Positions 56,603 to 63,660 are shown, numbered from the stretch's first letter. The stretch: 64,000 nt of DNA from Naegleria gruberi (GCA_000004985.1 GG738869.1), one strand, 5' to 3'. The notes: generated by a model from the sequence alone, not told the origin. Translations and numbers: made by a program.

Positions 56603-56676
56603 TACCGACAATGGGGCTCGAACCCACGACCCCAGGATTAGAAGTCCTGTGCTCTATCCAACTGAGCTATGACGGC
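56603..56676 (-). tRNA. tRNA-Arg (anticodon UCU)
   Basis: Cloverleaf by hand: acceptor GCCGTCA/TGTCGGT (one T-T mismatch at 5:68 and a G-U at 1:72), D arm GCTC/GAGC, anticodon stem CAGGA/TCCTG with loop CTTCTAA, T arm GTGGG-TTCGAGC-CCCAT. Discriminator A is followed by a T-tract. Confidence 0.7.
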
Positions 56677-56986: not shown

Positions 56987-57060
56987 GCAGCGATAGATCA
57001 GTTGGTTAGATCGTAAGCCTAACACGCTTAAGGTCGCGGGTTCAAGCCCCGCTCGCTGTA
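56987..57060 (+). tRNA. tRNA-Val (anticodon AAC)
   Basis: Acceptor GCAGCGA/TCGCTGT, D arm GATC-AGTTGGTTA-GATC, anticodon stem TAAGC/GCTTA with loop CTAACAC, T arm GCGGG-TTCAAGC-CCCGC. Discriminator A is followed immediately by TTTT (pol III terminator). Confidence 0.8.
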
Positions 57061-57656: not shown

Positions 57657-59669
57657 ATGGTTGTTTTAAATAAATTATTTACATTTCAACACTCCTACTA
57701 TTTATTCAAAAGAAACCACAAATACAAAAAATTTTCAATTCACCACCAATCTAATTACAAAATCATGTTCAACTCCAATACATCTACTTCAATCTCACTG
57801 CGTGAGATACAATCTGGCACAATCTCCAAACCCCATAAAACACTAAAAAATAAACACTTCAAGTACAGCAAAAAAAAACAACTTCAAGTCCAGTGTACAG
57901 TATTAACAGCGCTCAAAATGTTCAACAGCTCTAACAACAATACCTCTCCTAATCATCAACCAATGCCCAATCTACTTTACCTGAGTAATTATGTGAATCA
58001 ATCACAGAATATTGGCGATGCAATTTTAAATTATTTAAACGAGAATAGAAGTGCACTTGATGCACCGACACTTTTAAATAATATTCAAGAAATGGTCAAA
58101 TATCAACAGACACAAGATAGAATCAAGCAACAATCTTCACATCATAAATCCACTTCCTCTCATGCATCATCTTCAAGCTCTAACCATCACAATCCTCTTA
58201 TAGAATTAAAGAAATCAGACGATTCTTCAAAGATTGCAAACTCCACTCCGTCATCATCCAACTCTTCTGTAAATAATAATACCAACAAACAAAGTCAATC
58301 AGCATCTAACATGTTCAGCCAACAAGATGTGTCACTCTACATTAAACCTGCAAGAAAAACAGCCAAATACTTTTTAACTTACATTCCACCAAAGTTATAC
58401 TGTTCTCCATACAAGTATGATCTCATGTTGAGAATACCCGTCACTATGAATGAAACACATGATTTCATCTTCAATTTACTTGATTCTGAAAGTCGCGAAA
58501 AAATTACAAAGAATAATAAGGGAGATGAAGCATATTGCATCGAGAGAACAAAGACGCAACGAAAGAATTACCTAAAACCTGGATTTGTTAATGCTACTTT
58601 TCGTCTCAATTTCTCAATCTGTAGTTTCCATAATAGTAGAAAGCCATTTTTGATTAGTGTACATATTAGAGCCAAGTCGCTCAATCAAAATAATCACAAT
58701 ACTGGTGGAGATATTGAATCAGATCAATTGATTTTAATCAGTGATCCATTCTCAATATTTGCTAGAAAGACTGGTGCTAAGGGACAATCTATTGAGGATG
58801 ATTGGGGTCTTCCAAACCAATTCAGTGATTCTTCTAACAATTCAACAGAGGAAGAAGAGGAAGATGAAGAAGAGGATAAAAAGAAGAAGAAAAAGAAGGA
58901 GAAGGCAACAAAGAGAAAGAGAAAAGAAGAAGAAAGTAAACCAAAGAAGAAGAAATCAATTGCTGAACAAAAGCAACCAGAACCTGAAAAGTCTATTTCA
59001 CCACCAGAAGTTTTTAACCATTCTGTAAATAAGGAAACTCCAATTCAAGTCGATAATCAAGATATTACAACTAAGATTGTCTCCAATTATGACCAGATTG
59101 TTGACAATAATCAAGAAGTGTTAAGCTCTGGAAATATATTCGATGGCGATCAATGGTCTCAATTGTTTGGAAGTACAACACTTTCACCTGATATTGCTCC
59201 ATTCTTAGAAGAAGAAATTGTTACATGCCAACAACAACCACAACCTCAACCTGCAATATTCCAACAATTTGGAACTAGTTCTACTCCTCAACAATCTCAA
59301 CCATCAGCAGATTTGACAATGTTACTTTATCAAGAATTACTCAAACAATTTAATAATAGAGCACCAAATCAAAATGTACAGTTACCTTCATTCCTTTCCC
59401 CTCCACCCACTACTTGTACCCCAGAAACTAGTTGTGCTTCTAATGAAATGAATTGGTCAAGAGATTATCAGAAACAGACACTTCAAAATACCACTACTGC
59501 TGAACCAATTGATCTTGGAAGACTGATTCTTTCTAGAAATGCCAATCAAACCGCTCCACAACCTAGAGAGCAAGATGGAAACAATTTGCTTCTTAGTTTG
59601 GACGAAACATTATATAGCAAGTTGTTTGGATCAAGTTATGGATCTAATCCAAGTAACTACTTTTTCTAA
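57657..59669 (+). CDS. Low-complexity nuclear protein with lysine-rich NLS and acidic tract (possible DNA-binding regulator)
   Basis: 670-aa ORF; the start could be one of several Met. It has a central globular region (YIKPARKTAKYFLTYIPPKLYCSPYKYDLMLRIPVTMNETHDFIF...). It also has EEEEEDEEEDKKKKKKKEKATKRKRKEEESKPKKKK and a Q/P-rich C-terminus. Family unknown. Confidence 0.35.
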   Translation: MVVLNKLFTFQHSYYLFKRNHKYKKFSIHHQSNYKIMFNSNTSTSISLREIQSGTISKPHKTLKNKHFKYSKKKQLQVQCTVLTALKMFNSSNNNTSPNHQPMPNLLYLSNYVNQSQNIGDAILNYLNENRSALDAPTLLNNIQEMVKYQQTQDRIKQQSSHHKSTSSHASSSSSNHHNPLIELKKSDDSSKIANSTPSSSNSSVNNNTNKQSQSASNMFSQQDVSLYIKPARKTAKYFLTYIPPKLYCSPYKYDLMLRIPVTMNETHDFIFNLLDSESREKITKNNKGDEAYCIERTKTQRKNYLKPGFVNATFRLNFSICSFHNSRKPFLISVHIRAKSLNQNNHNTGGDIESDQLILISDPFSIFARKTGAKGQSIEDDWGLPNQFSDSSNNSTEEEEEDEEEDKKKKKKKEKATKRKRKEEESKPKKKKSIAEQKQPEPEKSISPPEVFNHSVNKETPIQVDNQDITTKIVSNYDQIVDNNQEVLSSGNIFDGDQWSQLFGSTTLSPDIAPFLEEEIVTCQQQPQPQPAIFQQFGTSSTPQQSQPSADLTMLLYQELLKQFNNRAPNQNVQLPSFLSPPPTTCTPETSCASNEMNWSRDYQKQTLQNTTTAEPIDLGRLILSRNANQTAPQPREQDGNNLLLSLDETLYSKLFGSSYGSNPSNYFF

Positions 59670-60743: not shown

Positions 60744-62984
60744 ATGTCTCAAGATAAAGCCAACAGAGAACATATCGCAAAGCTTGTTGTTGAAGCAGTT
60801 AAAAATATCTATGATGTGGATGTTAGCTCCCTTCAAAACGAGTTTGCCAGTAAATTGGAATTACCAAAGGAATATGATATGCTTCACAATATTGCTTTCC
60901 CATGTTTCGCTTTGGGAAAGCCTTTGACTCCAAAGAAGCCTAAAGAAGTCAAATTTAATGATTTCATCATGAATATTGCTTCCGATTTGGCAAAGGAAAT
61001 AAGTAGAATTGTCAAGGAAAAAACTGATGTTGTTGTTGAAAATTGTGTAGGTGAAGGTCCATATGTCAACTTCTTCTATCAACCTGCTCACTTAGGAAAA
61101 GCTATAGAAGAGGTTCACAATGGAAATTTCCTTTCCGTTAGAGAATCAAAGAATGAAAATGTCATGATCGAATATTCTCAACCAAATACTCACAAGACCT
61201 TCCACGTTGGTCACATGAGAAATGCAGCTCTTGGTAATTCACTTGTTTTGTTATACGAATGGTGTGGTTACAATGTACACGCTGTCAATTATATTGGTGA
61301 TGTTGGTGCTCACATTGCTAAATGTTTATGGTACTATCTTTACTACATCAAAAAGACAACTTTGGAAGAATTCGAAGCTCTTGACCTTACTCGTGAACAA
61401 ATTGTTGACATGTTGGAAGAATCTAGACCAAAGGATATTCCTCATGTTGAATGGTTGGGTAACCTTTATACTGAAGGTTTCTATCAATTAGACTTTGATT
61501 CTTGGACTAAATATCCACTTATTGGATACATTACTGCTAAAATTTTGGACATTCAAAACCATCCAACTAATGACAAATGGAAGATTCTCACTGTCACCAA
61601 TGGAACTGAAAACTTTACTGTTGTTTGTGGTGGTAAGGATTACAATGTTAATGACATTGTTGCCTATGCTCCACTTGGTAGTAAGAAGGGTGCTAGACTT
61701 GTTACTGAAGTTGATAAGCAAGGTGTTATCTCACAAGGTTTCATTTTGAGTCAAGCTGAACTGGGTAGCTCTGAAAATAAGGAAAAGATTCACATTTTCC
61801 CTGCTGATTCACCAGTTGGTATTGAACTCACCGAATTGGGAAGAAAGGCAGACTGTAATGTTGATGCTTCTATTAACATTGGTCAAGAATTCAAGAAGAG
61901 AGAATCACAATGTAAGACTCTCTTGAGAGCTATGGAAGATCACAAGAAGAATATTTCCATGTTGTGGGAAATCACTAGAACTTGGTCAATTGAAGACTTT
62001 AAATCTATTTATAAGTGGAGTGACTGTAGATTCGACCACTTCTTCCATGAATCTGATGTTGGTGATGAAAGTAAGGAAATTGTTCTTAAGGCCTACGAAG
62101 AAGGTAAACTTATCAAATCTGATGGTGCTATTGGCGCTGATTTGGGTAAGCTTGGTTTCTGTGTTTTGTTGACTTCTGCTGGTACTGGTTTGTACGCTAC
62201 TAAGGATTTGGCTCTTGCTAAGAGAAAATTCGAAGAATTCAAAGTTGACAGAAGTGTATATGTTGTCGACGTAAGTCAAAGCTTGCACTTCCAACAAGTC
62301 TTCAAGACATTGGAAGTCCTTGGTTTTGAACAAGCTAAGAAGTGTAAACATTTAGCTTATGGTATGGTTGTTTTACCTGATGGTAAAATGAGTAGCAGAA
62401 AGGGTAACATTATCTATTTCAGTACTCTTCAAAAGTCACTCACCCAAAATATTACTGACAACTTTATGTCCAAGTATGAAGGTGAATGGCCAAAGGAAGA
62501 AATTGAAGAAACTACCAGAAAGATTGCCATCAGTGCCATCAAATATGGTATGCTTAACCAAGATAACAATAAGGATATTACCTTTGTTCTCAAAGAATGG
62601 GCTTCAAAGTCTGGTAACACTGGTCCATATCTGATGTATGCTTATGCTAGAGCTGTTTCCGTTGTTAACAAGATTGGTTTGGATAGCAGTGTCACTATTG
62701 ACTACTCATTATTAACTGATGAAACTGAAAGAAAGCTTTTGTCAACAATTCTCCAATATTCAATTGTTGTTGAAAGAGCTGCTGAACAATACAAGCCACA
62801 ATTGCTTTGTATCTTCCTCTACAATCTCTGTAAGCAGTACAGTAAGATGTATGAAGCTGTCAGTATCAGAGATGCTGCTACCCCAGAACTCAAACAAACC
62901 AGATTGAGATTAGTTGCTGGCTTCGCAAAGGTTCTCAAACATGGTCTTGGATTGTTGGGTATTTCAACTGCTGAGAGAATGTAA
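60744..62984 (+). CDS. argS: Arginyl-tRNA synthetase with an inserted EMAPII/Trbp111-type tRNA-binding OB domain
   Basis: 746-aa single exon. It has the Arg-tRNA-synt N domain, the HIGH-type motif HVGHMRNAALGNSLVLLYEWCGYNV, the ArgRS MSTRKG-type motif DGKMSSRKGN and the DALR anticodon-binding domain. It ends ...LGLLGISTAERM, as ArgRS proteins do. Residues ~258-341 (nt 61515-61766) are an extra OB-fold tRNA-bind domain: GYITAKILDIQNHPTNDKWKILTVTNGTENFTVVCGGKDYNVNDIVAYAPLGSKKGARLVTEVDKQGVISQGFILSQAELG. Confidence 0.85.
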   Translation: MSQDKANREHIAKLVVEAVKNIYDVDVSSLQNEFASKLELPKEYDMLHNIAFPCFALGKPLTPKKPKEVKFNDFIMNIASDLAKEISRIVKEKTDVVVENCVGEGPYVNFFYQPAHLGKAIEEVHNGNFLSVRESKNENVMIEYSQPNTHKTFHVGHMRNAALGNSLVLLYEWCGYNVHAVNYIGDVGAHIAKCLWYYLYYIKKTTLEEFEALDLTREQIVDMLEESRPKDIPHVEWLGNLYTEGFYQLDFDSWTKYPLIGYITAKILDIQNHPTNDKWKILTVTNGTENFTVVCGGKDYNVNDIVAYAPLGSKKGARLVTEVDKQGVISQGFILSQAELGSSENKEKIHIFPADSPVGIELTELGRKADCNVDASINIGQEFKKRESQCKTLLRAMEDHKKNISMLWEITRTWSIEDFKSIYKWSDCRFDHFFHESDVGDESKEIVLKAYEEGKLIKSDGAIGADLGKLGFCVLLTSAGTGLYATKDLALAKRKFEEFKVDRSVYVVDVSQSLHFQQVFKTLEVLGFEQAKKCKHLAYGMVVLPDGKMSSRKGNIIYFSTLQKSLTQNITDNFMSKYEGEWPKEEIEETTRKIAISAIKYGMLNQDNNKDITFVLKEWASKSGNTGPYLMYAYARAVSVVNKIGLDSSVTIDYSLLTDETERKLLSTILQYSIVVERAAEQYKPQLLCIFLYNLCKQYSKMYEAVSIRDAATPELKQTRLRLVAGFAKVLKHGLGLLGISTAERM

Positions 62985-63045: not shown

Positions 63046-63660
63046 ATGGGATTTAACTTAGCCTGGAAATATTTTTCGATCATCTTGCTGGTTACTCTTG
63101 CATATTTAATTCATAATCAATATATTGAAAATAATTATAACAAACAGGAAGGATGGGTTATGGATTTAGAGGAAGACTATAGATTATTTTCTATTGAAAA
63201 TACAACAATCACAAATATCAACACTTCCGAAACCAATAACAACACACTAACCACATTCATGACTATGAATATCAATCCAAATGATTGGCAAAACATAACA
63301 AAGGACCTAGAAACAAAACAATACCTTGCTATTATTATTCAATTTTACACATCTAATAGTGTTTACTGCCAACATTTAGTTCCAGTTTGGAAGGATCTAA
63401 TCATGAATGTAAAGTCAAATAATACATTGGCTGGAAAGCTAAGATTTGGACAATATCACGTTAGTGGTCGAGAAAGTTTTATATTTACACGAAGTATTTT
63501 AAATAGAGGGGTATTAAATTTTCCTACTATTGTAATGTTTCACAGGGACAGAAATAACACTAAGATTATTCCTAGATTTTATCATGACAAGAGAACAGTA
63601 GACCTGTTGGAAAAATTTGTAAATAGAATTTTAATTGATATTGAAGCTTATGACAAGTGA
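63046..63660 (+). CDS. Membrane-anchored thioredoxin-fold protein with degenerate active site (single Cys)
   Basis: 204-aa ORF. It has an N-terminal signal anchor (FSIILLVTLAYLI). The thioredoxin-like segment YLAIIIQFYTSNSVYCQHLVPVWKDL aligns to FYAPWCGHCK-type sites but has SVYCQH. Confidence 0.4.
   Translation: MGFNLAWKYFSIILLVTLAYLIHNQYIENNYNKQEGWVMDLEEDYRLFSIENTTITNINTSETNNNTLTTFMTMNINPNDWQNITKDLETKQYLAIIIQFYTSNSVYCQHLVPVWKDLIMNVKSNNTLAGKLRFGQYHVSGRESFIFTRSILNRGVLNFPTIVMFHRDRNNTKIIPRFYHDKRTVDLLEKFVNRILIDIEAYDK

What the first reader, a model, noticed from the sequence alone, without database searches (positions are those of the whole stretch)
60744..62984. ArgRS carrying an internal EMAPII/Trbp111-type tRNA-binding OB domain
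The arginyl-tRNA synthetase is otherwise canonical: N-terminal additional domain, HVGH motif, ArgRS MSxRKG-type motif, DALR domain and the terminal ...ERM. Between the HIGH region and the second half of the Rossmann fold (nt 61515-61766) it carries an about 85-aa insertion. The insertion matches the tRNA_bind OB fold of MetRS C-termini, PheRS-beta, Arc1p and EMAP-II: HPTNDKW...VVCGGKDYNVNDIVAYAPLGS...QGVISQGFILSQAELG. Such domains are normally appended in cis or trans to MetRS, PheRS and TyrRS. An in-frame insertion into the ArgRS catalytic domain is a domain architecture I do not recognise.
Basis: partly seen in the sequence, partly recalled or inferred. Interest (0 to 1): 0.7.

Follow-up and report, generated by a model that had tools for sequence, protein, structure and literature searches.

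The report
ArgRS with a nested tRNA-binding-type domain
The Naegleria gruberi arginyl-tRNA synthetase gene really does carry a conserved PheRS-beta-like OB ("tRNA_bind") domain spliced into its catalytic core; the design is shared with other heterolobosean amoebae and many bacteria, appears undescribed in the literature, and is hidden in the public N. gruberi annotation by a false intron.

Summary

It is not an intron: dN/dS is 0.07-0.14, as in the rest of the gene, and it is kept in relatives' transcriptomes. The public N. gruberi model wrongly splices out 61306-61710.

It is not unique. Heterolobosean orthologues and many ArgRS of Planctomycetota, Acidobacteriota and Bdellovibrionota share it. 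Sister ArgRS (Bdellovibrio, SAR324, Oligoflexia) have a 10-12-residue loop there instead. Eukaryotes nest inside the bacterial insert-bearing clade, which suggests lateral transfer.

Function is inferred: probably an accessory tRNA-contacting domain acting in cis. The Trbp111 Ser82 equivalent is invariant, but the module is not basic, and its position relative to tRNA could not be computed. No paper describing the architecture was found. I rate it a new variant of a known kind, of moderate interest.

The parts
60744..62984 (+). Complete single-exon ArgRS coding sequence (746 aa plus stop), Naegleria gruberi
   Evidence: ORF list. TIGR00456 argS scores 340.4 bits against a cut-off of 261.65. 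P0004 is 100% identical and named N. gruberi. The AF2 model has pLDDT 96.1 and pTM 0.91. Foldseek matches yeast ArgRS 1f7u_A with TM 0.82 over the target.
60744..61118 (+). N-terminal additional domain (Add1), aa 1-125. Pfam does not recognise it in this protein, but it is structurally aligned to solved ArgRS.
   Evidence: Foldseek alignments to 1f7u_A and 2zue_A span more than 750 columns. PF03485 is precomputed on the bacterial orthologues. There is no PF03485 hit in the query even at E<=1.
61056..61073 (+). GPYVNF motif (aa 105-110), which corresponds to the Add1 motif that reads D-loop nucleotide 20 in solved ArgRS
   Evidence: GPY[LVI]NF is present in most of the 119 orthologues. G105, P106, Y107 and N109 are nearly invariant. 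The assignment to A20 recognition rests on my own knowledge of T. thermophilus and yeast ArgRS structures.
61203..61214 (+). HIGH signature HVGH (aa 154-157)
   Evidence: Invariant in alignments A1 and A2.
61359..61436 (+). Loop expansion (aa 206-231, predicted helical) specific to the eukaryote clade, at the position of the disordered E. coli Ins1 loop 178-187
   Evidence: Absent from bacterial orthologues with or without the OB. Helices 207-212 and 217-227 in the model. E. coli disorder is reported in PMC3956977.
61494..61874 (+). Inserted OB module (aa 251-377, 127 aa), nested in Ins1 between E. coli residues R194 and E204
61533..61823 (+). Pfam tRNA_bind (PF01588) match, aa 264-360
   Evidence: 37.5 bits against a gathering score of 27, E 2.6e-9. 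The pheT_bact, YtpR and TapR models also match this stretch.
61722..61763 (+). G-x-x-S-x-G-[M/F]-x-x-S-x-x-E-L signature (aa 327-340). S330 is the Trbp111 Ser82 equivalent and F333 is the Met85 equivalent.
   Evidence: G327, S330, G332 and E339 are invariant in 119/119. Position 333 is Met in 83/119 and Phe in Naegleria/Willaertia. The roles of Ser82 and Met85 are taken from PMC8501954.
61878..62018 (+). Ins1 helical hairpin (aa 379-425) that follows the OB and leads back into the Rossmann fold
   Evidence: Helices 379-398 and 402-425 in the model. It aligns to E. coli EEFAERAR...LQSGD...W.
62388..62405 (+). MSSRKG (aa 549-554), the KMSKS-loop equivalent
   Evidence: M549, R552 and G554 are invariant; S550 and S551 are nearly invariant. 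It aligns to yeast MSTRKG.
62631..62981 (+). DALR anticodon-binding domain (aa 630-746)
   Evidence: PF05746 scores 95.6 bits, covering profile positions 1-117 of 117.
61306..61710 (+). Segment that the public N. gruberi gene model treats as a GT..AG intron (405 nt, removing aa 188-322). It is coding, not intronic.
   Evidence: P0004 sequence and junction mapping. dN/dS 0.069-0.141 and codon-position differences 19:9:68. Uninterrupted single-exon orthologues exist in N. lovaniensis and Willaertia.

Best explanation
This is the N. gruberi arginyl-tRNA synthetase, a member of a bacterial-type ArgRS subfamily. In that subfamily a PheRS-beta-B2-type OB domain (Pfam tRNA_bind) was inserted once into a surface loop of the ArgRS-specific insertion domain Ins1, and the whole gene later passed from bacteria to an ancestor of the Heterolobosea. 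Shown here: the domain identity, the nested position, the purifying selection, the presence/absence pattern and the phylogenetic nesting. Inferred: the OB acts in cis as an accessory tRNA-contacting domain. It would add one more grip on tRNA-Arg to the canonical Add1 (D-loop), catalytic (acceptor end) and DALR (anticodon) contacts. That would raise tRNA affinity or help position the tRNA. This matters for ArgRS because the enzyme cannot activate arginine without bound tRNA. On this reading it is a built-in counterpart of the OB domains appended to the ends of MetRS, TyrRS and PheRS, or supplied in trans by Arc1p/AIMP1.
Against: No direct evidence of RNA binding. The module is not electropositive: net charge averages -2.9 (range -10 to +6) and is -3 in N. 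gruberi, with only four conserved basic positions. It lacks the Lys-rich flank that gives Arc1p, AIMP1 and tRip most of their affinity (PMC8501954). Met85 is replaced by Phe, Leu or Cys in nearly all of the eukaryote clade. From my own recollection, its closest structural relative, the B2 domain of T. thermophilus PheRS, does not contact tRNA in the crystal complex. I could not obtain model coordinates, so I could not test whether the OB faces the tRNA. Insert-less sister enzymes evidently work without it. An unrelated helical insert occupies the same site in L068, so the site tolerates insertions that need not bind RNA.
Confidence: 0.5

Rival explanations
1. The OB is a conserved structural or protein-interaction module that does not touch tRNA. 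It might stabilise the otherwise floppy Ins1, mediate oligomerisation, or bind a partner protein or another synthetase.
Against: S330, G327, G332 and E339 are invariant, including the residue whose mutation impairs tRNA binding in Trbp111 and tRip. Conservation is stronger than in Add1. Every characterised aaRS-linked member of this fold family has been tied to tRNA.
Confidence: 0.3
2. The OB-bearing enzyme is a specialised second ArgRS and not the housekeeping one. It might be organellar in Naegleria, or an inhibitor-resistant or otherwise dedicated paralogue in bacteria, with the OB serving that special role.
For: Duplicate ArgRS genes conferring resistance to natural inhibitors exist in bacteria (bioRxiv 10.64898/2025.12.02.691738). 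I could not survey whole genomes, so a second ArgRS in Naegleria or in the bacterial hosts is not excluded.
Against: The protein has no N-terminal extension relative to its bacterial orthologues, and its first residues include acidic ones (MSQDKANREH...), unlike a mitochondrial presequence. Purifying selection is strong. The form is spread across several phyla and many MAGs as a ~705-aa argS matching the housekeeping equivalog. No biosynthetic-cluster context was seen, but flanks were not analysed systematically.
Confidence: 0.15
3. The extra segment is not part of the mature protein: it is an unspliced intron (as in the public N. gruberi model) or an assembly artefact.
For: The public model P0004 removes 61306-61710 using a GT..AG pair, and the length is a multiple of three.
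Against: dN/dS across the segment is 0.069-0.141, with substitutions concentrated at third codon positions (19:9:68). The probability of 142 stop-free codons by chance is 2.6e-5. The removed segment includes the helix after GDxG, which is conserved in all ArgRS. Orthologues in N. lovaniensis and Willaertia are uninterrupted. Transcriptome-derived sequences (Percolomonas MMETSP P0013, Trinity transcript P0011) keep the module. Intron-less bacteria have it too.
Confidence: 0.01

Closest known systems
[quoted passage not shown]
   Different: The host protein is a class I ArgRS, not the class II PheRS beta subunit. None of the other PheT domains is present. In the eukaryote clade the family Met is replaced.
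Terminally appended or trans-acting tRNA_bind OB domains: MetRS C-terminus / Trbp111, human TyrRS C-domain, Arc1p, AIMP1 (p43/EMAPII), Plasmodium tRip
   Different: Those domains sit at a terminus or on a separate polypeptide, often dimerise or carry a pseudo-dimer extension, and rely on Lys-rich flanks. This one is internal, apparently monomeric, not basic, and closer to the B2 subtype.
Mammalian ArgRS-AIMP1 pairing within the multi-synthetase complex
   Same: An ArgRS is associated with a tRNA_bind-family OB domain. A role of p43 in delivering tRNA to ArgRS was proposed (PMC4394549). PDB 4r3z (ArgRS-GlnRS-AIMP1) is among the structural matches of the ArgRS body.
   Different: In mammals the OB is on another protein, attached through the ArgRS N-terminal extension, and the stimulatory effect was not confirmed in a second study (PMC4394549). 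Here the OB is covalently nested in Ins1. The two arrangements are evolutionarily independent.
B2-TyrRS and LysRS-B2 fusions in candidate-phyla bacteria
   Same: They show that the PheRS-beta B2 OB is a mobile module recruited by other synthetases (PMC5370408).
   Different: Those are N- or C-terminal fusions through a helix. None is an internal insertion, and none involves ArgRS.
Canonical ArgRS (yeast 1F7U/1BS2, E. coli 4OBY/5B63, T. thermophilus 1IQ0, P. horikoshii 2ZUE, human 4Q2T)
   Same: Add1, a Rossmann-fold catalytic domain with Ins1 and Ins2, and the DALR domain. TM 0.75-0.84 over the targets. Same motifs.
   Different: No solved ArgRS has a folded domain inside Ins1. All are 560-660 residues.

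Membership tests
Arginyl-tRNA synthetase (class Ia; NCBIfam TIGR00456 argS) | Whole-protein score above the curated equivalog cut-off | tested here: met
   340.4 bits against a cut-off of 261.65. Pfam tRNA-synt_1d at E 3.4e-41.
Arginyl-tRNA synthetase (class Ia; NCBIfam TIGR00456 argS) | Class I signatures: HIGH, and the KMSKS-loop equivalent | tested here: met
   HVGH at aa 154-157 is invariant. MSSRKG at aa 549-554 aligns with yeast MSTRKG.
Arginyl-tRNA synthetase (class Ia; NCBIfam TIGR00456 argS) | ArgRS-specific N-terminal Add1 domain with the D-loop (position 20) reading motif | tested here: inconclusive
   The fold aligns to solved ArgRS over the full length and the GPYVNF motif is conserved. 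However, PF03485 is not detected in the query itself, although it is precomputed on the bacterial orthologues. The functional role of the motif rests on my own knowledge.
Arginyl-tRNA synthetase (class Ia; NCBIfam TIGR00456 argS) | C-terminal DALR anticodon-binding domain | tested here: met
   PF05746 scores 95.6 bits with full profile coverage.
Arginyl-tRNA synthetase (class Ia; NCBIfam TIGR00456 argS) | Catalyses tRNA-dependent arginine activation and charging of tRNA-Arg | not testable with these tools
   This needs enzymology. A tRNA-Arg(UCU) gene with A20, C35 and A73 lies in the same window.
tRNA_bind OB-fold family (Pfam PF01588) | Profile score above Pfam's gathering threshold | tested here: met
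   37.5 bits against 27, in the whole protein and in the excised segment.
tRNA_bind OB-fold family (Pfam PF01588) | Five-stranded OB barrel superposable on solved members | tested here: met
tRNA_bind OB-fold family (Pfam PF01588) | Equivalent of Trbp111 Ser82 (mutation impairs tRNA binding) | tested here: met
   S330 is invariant in 119/119. Residue role from PMC8501954.
tRNA_bind OB-fold family (Pfam PF01588) | Equivalent of Trbp111 Met85 (mutation impairs tRNA binding) | tested here: not met
   Phe333 in N. gruberi, and F/L/C in 13 of 14 eukaryote-clade sequences. It is Met in 83/119 overall and in 41/41 PheT-type hits. The substitution is hydrophobic, so function may persist.
tRNA_bind OB-fold family (Pfam PF01588) | Binds tRNA | not testable with these tools
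PheRS-beta B2 domain subtype | Best sequence and structure match among tRNA_bind subtypes, including the ELG...P.D.P.G tail | tested here: met
PheRS-beta B2 domain subtype | Resides in a PheRS beta subunit (with B1, B3/4, B5 and following domains) | tested here: not met
   The host is an ArgRS and no other PheT domain was detected. It therefore works like, and derives from, the B2 type but is not a PheT.

The most novel reading that the evidence does not exclude
The nested OB is a true third tRNA-reading head of ArgRS. [quoted passage not shown] In that case it is a covalent, independently evolved counterpart of the mammalian ArgRS-AIMP1 arrangement. In addition, this bacterial-derived enzyme would be the sole cytosolic ArgRS of Naegleria, having replaced the ancestral eukaryotic enzyme. 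That would make it a structurally distinctive, parasite-specific target in the pathogen N. fowleri.
Probability: 0.2. Interest if true: 0.65.

Novelty: new variant of a known kind. Interest (0 to 1): 0.45.

Why it matters
Accessory tRNA-binding OB domains are textbook additions to the ends of MetRS, TyrRS and PheRS, or to cofactors such as Arc1p and AIMP1. An internal one, nested in the ArgRS-specific Ins1 domain, does not appear in the literature I could search. Nature has supplied a clean comparison: closely related ArgRS with the module, without it, and (in L068) with an unrelated module at the same site. That makes the question of what an extra OB does for a synthetase directly testable, in an enzyme whose amino-acid activation depends on tRNA. 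It is also a well-supported candidate case of bacterium-to-protist transfer of an essential translation gene. It flags an error in the public N. gruberi annotation that hides the domain. If the enzyme is Naegleria's only cytosolic ArgRS, its bacterial origin and extra domain would be relevant to drug-target thinking for N. fowleri.

Tried and rejected
1. Intron or artefact: rejected.

2. I first assumed Ins1 was equivalent to the CP1 editing-domain site of LeuRS/IleRS/ValRS. On re-reading the topology, Ins1 follows the GDxG motif (beta2/alphaB) and precedes beta3, so Ins2 is the CP1-like position. I dropped the CP1 analogy and with it any easy argument that the OB must sit at the acceptor end.

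3. GST_C ORF directly upstream of the orthologue on eukaryotic contig L084 (a possible multi-synthetase-complex adaptor fused to ArgRS). It ends in a stop, has its own GST N-terminal fragments, and has no counterpart upstream of the Naegleria or Willaertia genes. It is a neighbouring gene only.

4. L068 as an exception to monophyly of the insert. Its insert is helical, gives no OB HMM hit and no Pfam hit, so it is an independent insertion and not an exception.

5. A stand-alone OB gene next to argS in insert-less relatives (a trans equivalent): none was found within about 3 kb in any such locus.

6. Literature: ten full-text searches found no description of an ArgRS with an OB/tRNA_bind insert. 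The classic yeast ArgRS-tRNA and Trbp111 structure papers are not held.

7. Geometry of the OB relative to tRNA: model coordinates are not exposed to the sandbox and AFDB was not available, so this remains untested.

8. A second ArgRS in Naegleria or in the bacterial genomes could not be searched with the remaining capped tools.

Full report
OBSERVATION. The window contains an uninterrupted ORF at 60744..62984 (+) of 746 codons, exactly as reported. Base composition (31-37% G+C throughout) and a 100%-identical database protein named 'predicted protein [Naegleria gruberi]' (P0004) identify the source as Naegleria gruberi. Pfam finds tRNA-synt_1d in two stretches (E 3.4e-41), DALR_1 at aa 630-746 (95.6 bits) and, between the two catalytic stretches, tRNA_bind PF01588 at aa 264-360. 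The tRNA_bind score is 37.5 bits against a gathering score of 27 (E 2.6e-9), and the excised segment gives the same hit. NCBIfam places the protein above the argS equivalog cut-off (340.4 against 261.65 bits). It matches the insert to the N-terminal part of pheT_bact (profile positions 46-162) and to the YtpR and TapR models.

EXTENT AND POSITION OF THE INSERT. Against PDB sequences, the protein aligns to yeast ArgRS over aa 98-191 and 389-746, while aa 232-376 align to residues 16-160 of P. aeruginosa PheRS-beta. In an alignment with E. coli ArgRS (taken from NC_000913), the extra module falls between E. coli R194 and E204. E. coli Ins1 is residues 164-221, with disordered loops at 178-187 and 203-204 (PMC3956977). 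The OB is therefore nested inside the ArgRS-specific insertion domain Ins1, at a flexible surface loop. Measured against 36 closely related ArgRS that lack it, the module is aa 251-377 (127 aa, nt 61494-61874). The eukaryotic sequences have a second expansion at aa 206-231, at the position of the other disordered E. coli loop. I first equated Ins1 with the CP1 site of other class I enzymes. The order of conserved motifs shows that Ins1 precedes beta3 and that Ins2 is the CP1-like site, so I withdrew that analogy.

An exhaustive HMMER search of 1.84 billion representatives with aa 235-385 finds 1665 proteins at E<=1e-3 and 79 at E<=1e-10. Of the top 150, about 56 are ArgRS-embedded copies and 48 are ~790-aa proteins matched at residues ~42-160, the PheT B2 position. 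The module is thus a genuine tRNA_bind OB domain of the PheRS-beta B2 subtype, not the EMAPII/Trbp111 subtype.

NOT AN INTRON. The public N. gruberi protein (536 aa) starts at Met76 and removes aa 188-322 through a GT..AG pair at 61306-61710. That hides the domain, and no PF01588 is recorded for it. N. lovaniensis and Willaertia magna have uninterrupted single-exon orthologues annotated with tRNA_bind. Nei-Gojobori dN/dS across aa 189-330, which spans the removed segment, is 0.069 and 0.141, against 0.094 and 0.097 for the whole gene. Differences fall 19:9:68 on codon positions 1:2:3. The chance of 142 stop-free codons at this composition is 2.6e-5. dS is saturated, so the ratios are approximate, but the pattern is clear. 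Transcriptome-derived orthologues (Percolomonas MMETSP, and a Trinity transcript) keep the module.

DISTRIBUTION AND HISTORY. Of the 120 best homologues, 106 already carry a precomputed PF01588 hit. They include N. lovaniensis (80% identity), Willaertia (74%), Acrasis (56%), Percolomonas, and many ~705-aa bacterial ArgRS (42-50% identity). A scan of one genome per prokaryotic species found 594 relatives of this ArgRS subfamily. Among the 80 kept, about half carry the module and half do not:
- With the module: Planctomycetota including Saltatorellus ferox; Acidobacteriota/Holophagae including Sulfidibacter corallicola and Acanthopleuribacter pedis; and several Bdellovibrionota MAGs.
- Without the module: Bdellovibrio, Pseudobdellovibrio, Bacteriovoracaceae, Oligoflexia and SAR324.
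The HIGH-to-ESxV spacing is bimodal, ~256-261 (a few 285-296) against 132-142 residues. Occupancy of the insert columns is 128-168 against 10-12 residues. In neighbour-joining trees with the insert masked (541 columns, 100 bootstraps), the eukaryotes are monophyletic (100) and the OB-bearing sequences form a clade (74). The bacterial OB-bearers are monophyletic to the exclusion of eukaryotes in only 6 replicates. The simplest history is one insertion in a bacterial ArgRS, followed by one transfer of the whole gene to a heterolobosean ancestor. This is a distance-based result with a single distant outgroup and needs a proper likelihood analysis. The apparent exception, L068, carries an unrelated helical insert of ~130 aa at the same site, with no OB HMM hit and no Pfam hit. 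This suggests that the Ins1 loop tolerates insertions in general. The contig of P0005 is clearly eukaryotic (Vps39, VPS13, EPL1). One member comes from a Dermamoeba (Amoebozoa) transcriptome, which means either a wider eukaryotic range or contamination.

HOW IT PROBABLY WORKS. Shown: the module is under purifying selection comparable to the rest of the enzyme. It is more conserved than Add1 (0.54 against 0.41 mean column conservation). It keeps the family signature G327-x-x-S330-x-G332...E339 in 119/119 sequences. In Trbp111, Ser82 and Met85 of this signature are the residues whose substitution affected tRNA binding, and the equivalent pair is required in Plasmodium tRip (PMC8501954). Here the Ser is invariant, and the Met is kept in 83/119, but it is Phe, Leu or Cys in nearly all of the eukaryote clade. 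The canonical tRNA-reading parts of ArgRS are retained: the GPY[LVI]NF motif of Add1 and the DALR domain. A tRNA-Arg(UCU) gene in the same window has A20, C35 and A73.

Inferred: the OB is a cis-acting accessory tRNA contact that increases affinity or helps position tRNA-Arg. That would be meaningful for an enzyme that needs tRNA even to activate arginine (PMC3956977). I put this at about 0.5.

Against it: the module is not basic, with mean net charge -2.9 and four conserved basic positions. It lacks the Lys-rich flanks that drive binding in Arc1p, AIMP1 and tRip. Insert-less sisters function without it. I also could not compute where the OB sits relative to tRNA, because model coordinates are not exposed. 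The main rival, at 0.3, is a structural or protein-interaction role without tRNA contact. A specialised-paralogue scenario (0.15) cannot be excluded without whole-genome searches.

COMPARISON WITH WHAT IS KNOWN. OB domains of this family are known at the termini of MetRS, TyrRS and PheRS-beta, as free proteins (Trbp111, CsaA, YtpR), and on cofactors (Arc1p, AIMP1, tRip) (PMC8501954, PMC4394549). B2-type OBs are known as terminal fusions to some TyrRS and LysRS (PMC5370408). Mammalian ArgRS is associated with the OB of AIMP1 in trans, with disputed effect (PMC4394549). An OB nested inside the ArgRS catalytic domain was not found in ten full-text searches, although automatic annotation already shows the architecture on database entries. 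I therefore rate it a new variant of a known kind. The components and the general logic are familiar. The host enzyme, the internal position and the natural with/without series are not.

VERDICT. The finding is real and correctly interpreted in its essentials. It is not a singular oddity of this gene but a conserved, phylogenetically coherent ArgRS family that apparently reached Heterolobosea from bacteria. Interest is moderate (0.45): a specialist would find it noteworthy and experimentally tractable, but not paradigm-changing.

Noticed in passing
window 56603-56676 (-) and 56987-57060 (+): A tRNA-Arg(UCU) gene and a tRNA-Val(AAC) gene lie about 4 kb upstream of the ArgRS gene. Read by eye, the tRNA-Arg has A20 in the D-loop, C35 and discriminator A73, which is the canonical ArgRS identity set. 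It also has a U5-U68 mismatch in the acceptor stem. The proximity to argS is probably coincidental.
   Followed up: partly
window 61306-61710 (public model P0004): The public N. gruberi protein model for this gene (536 aa) starts at Met76 and splices out a false 405-nt GT..AG intron, deleting aa 188-322 and most of the OB domain. This is an annotation error worth correcting.
   Followed up: yes
window 61359-61436 (aa 206-231): A second, smaller expansion specific to the eukaryote clade (predicted helices). It sits at the position of the other disordered Ins1 loop of E. coli ArgRS. Some Bdellovibrionales MAGs (L012, L031, L033) have an independent 30-40-aa expansion at the same place.
   Followed up: partly
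L068 (Acidobacteria MAG JANQFM010000464.1), ArgRS residues after ...RWLGELYAQSDRLL: This ArgRS carries an unrelated insert of ~130 aa that looks helical by eye, at the very same Ins1 site. It has no Pfam match and no OB HMM hit, and the protein branches outside the OB-bearing clade. The loop seems to be a hot spot for domain insertion.
   Followed up: partly
P0011 (EukProt EP01097, Dermamoeba algensis transcriptome): An OB-bearing ArgRS that groups with the heterolobosean sequences comes from an amoebozoan transcriptome. This means either a wider eukaryotic distribution or contamination of that data set.
   Followed up: no
L020, L023, L024, L026-L028, L036, L038 (MAGs labelled Pseudomonadota/Bdellovibrionota/Deltaproteobacteria, stop-to-stop ORFs of ~722 aa): A further group of relatives at 40-41% identity, with full-length matches that include the OB (HMM hits). 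They lack the exact EYSQPNTH motif and were not placed in the tree.
   Followed up: no
L084 7120-7863 (+), eukaryotic metagenome contig: A glutathione-S-transferase gene (GST_C domain) lies immediately upstream of the ArgRS orthologue on the same strand. I checked it as a possible multi-synthetase-complex adaptor fusion and found it to be a separate gene with no counterpart in Naegleria.
   Followed up: yes
window 57657-59669 (+) and 63046-63660 (+): The flanking ORFs are a 670-aa low-complexity (Asn/Ser/Gln/Lys-rich) protein with only a sub-threshold YL1 hit, and a 204-aa protein with a sub-threshold thioredoxin hit. Neither is obviously related to the ArgRS.
   Followed up: partly
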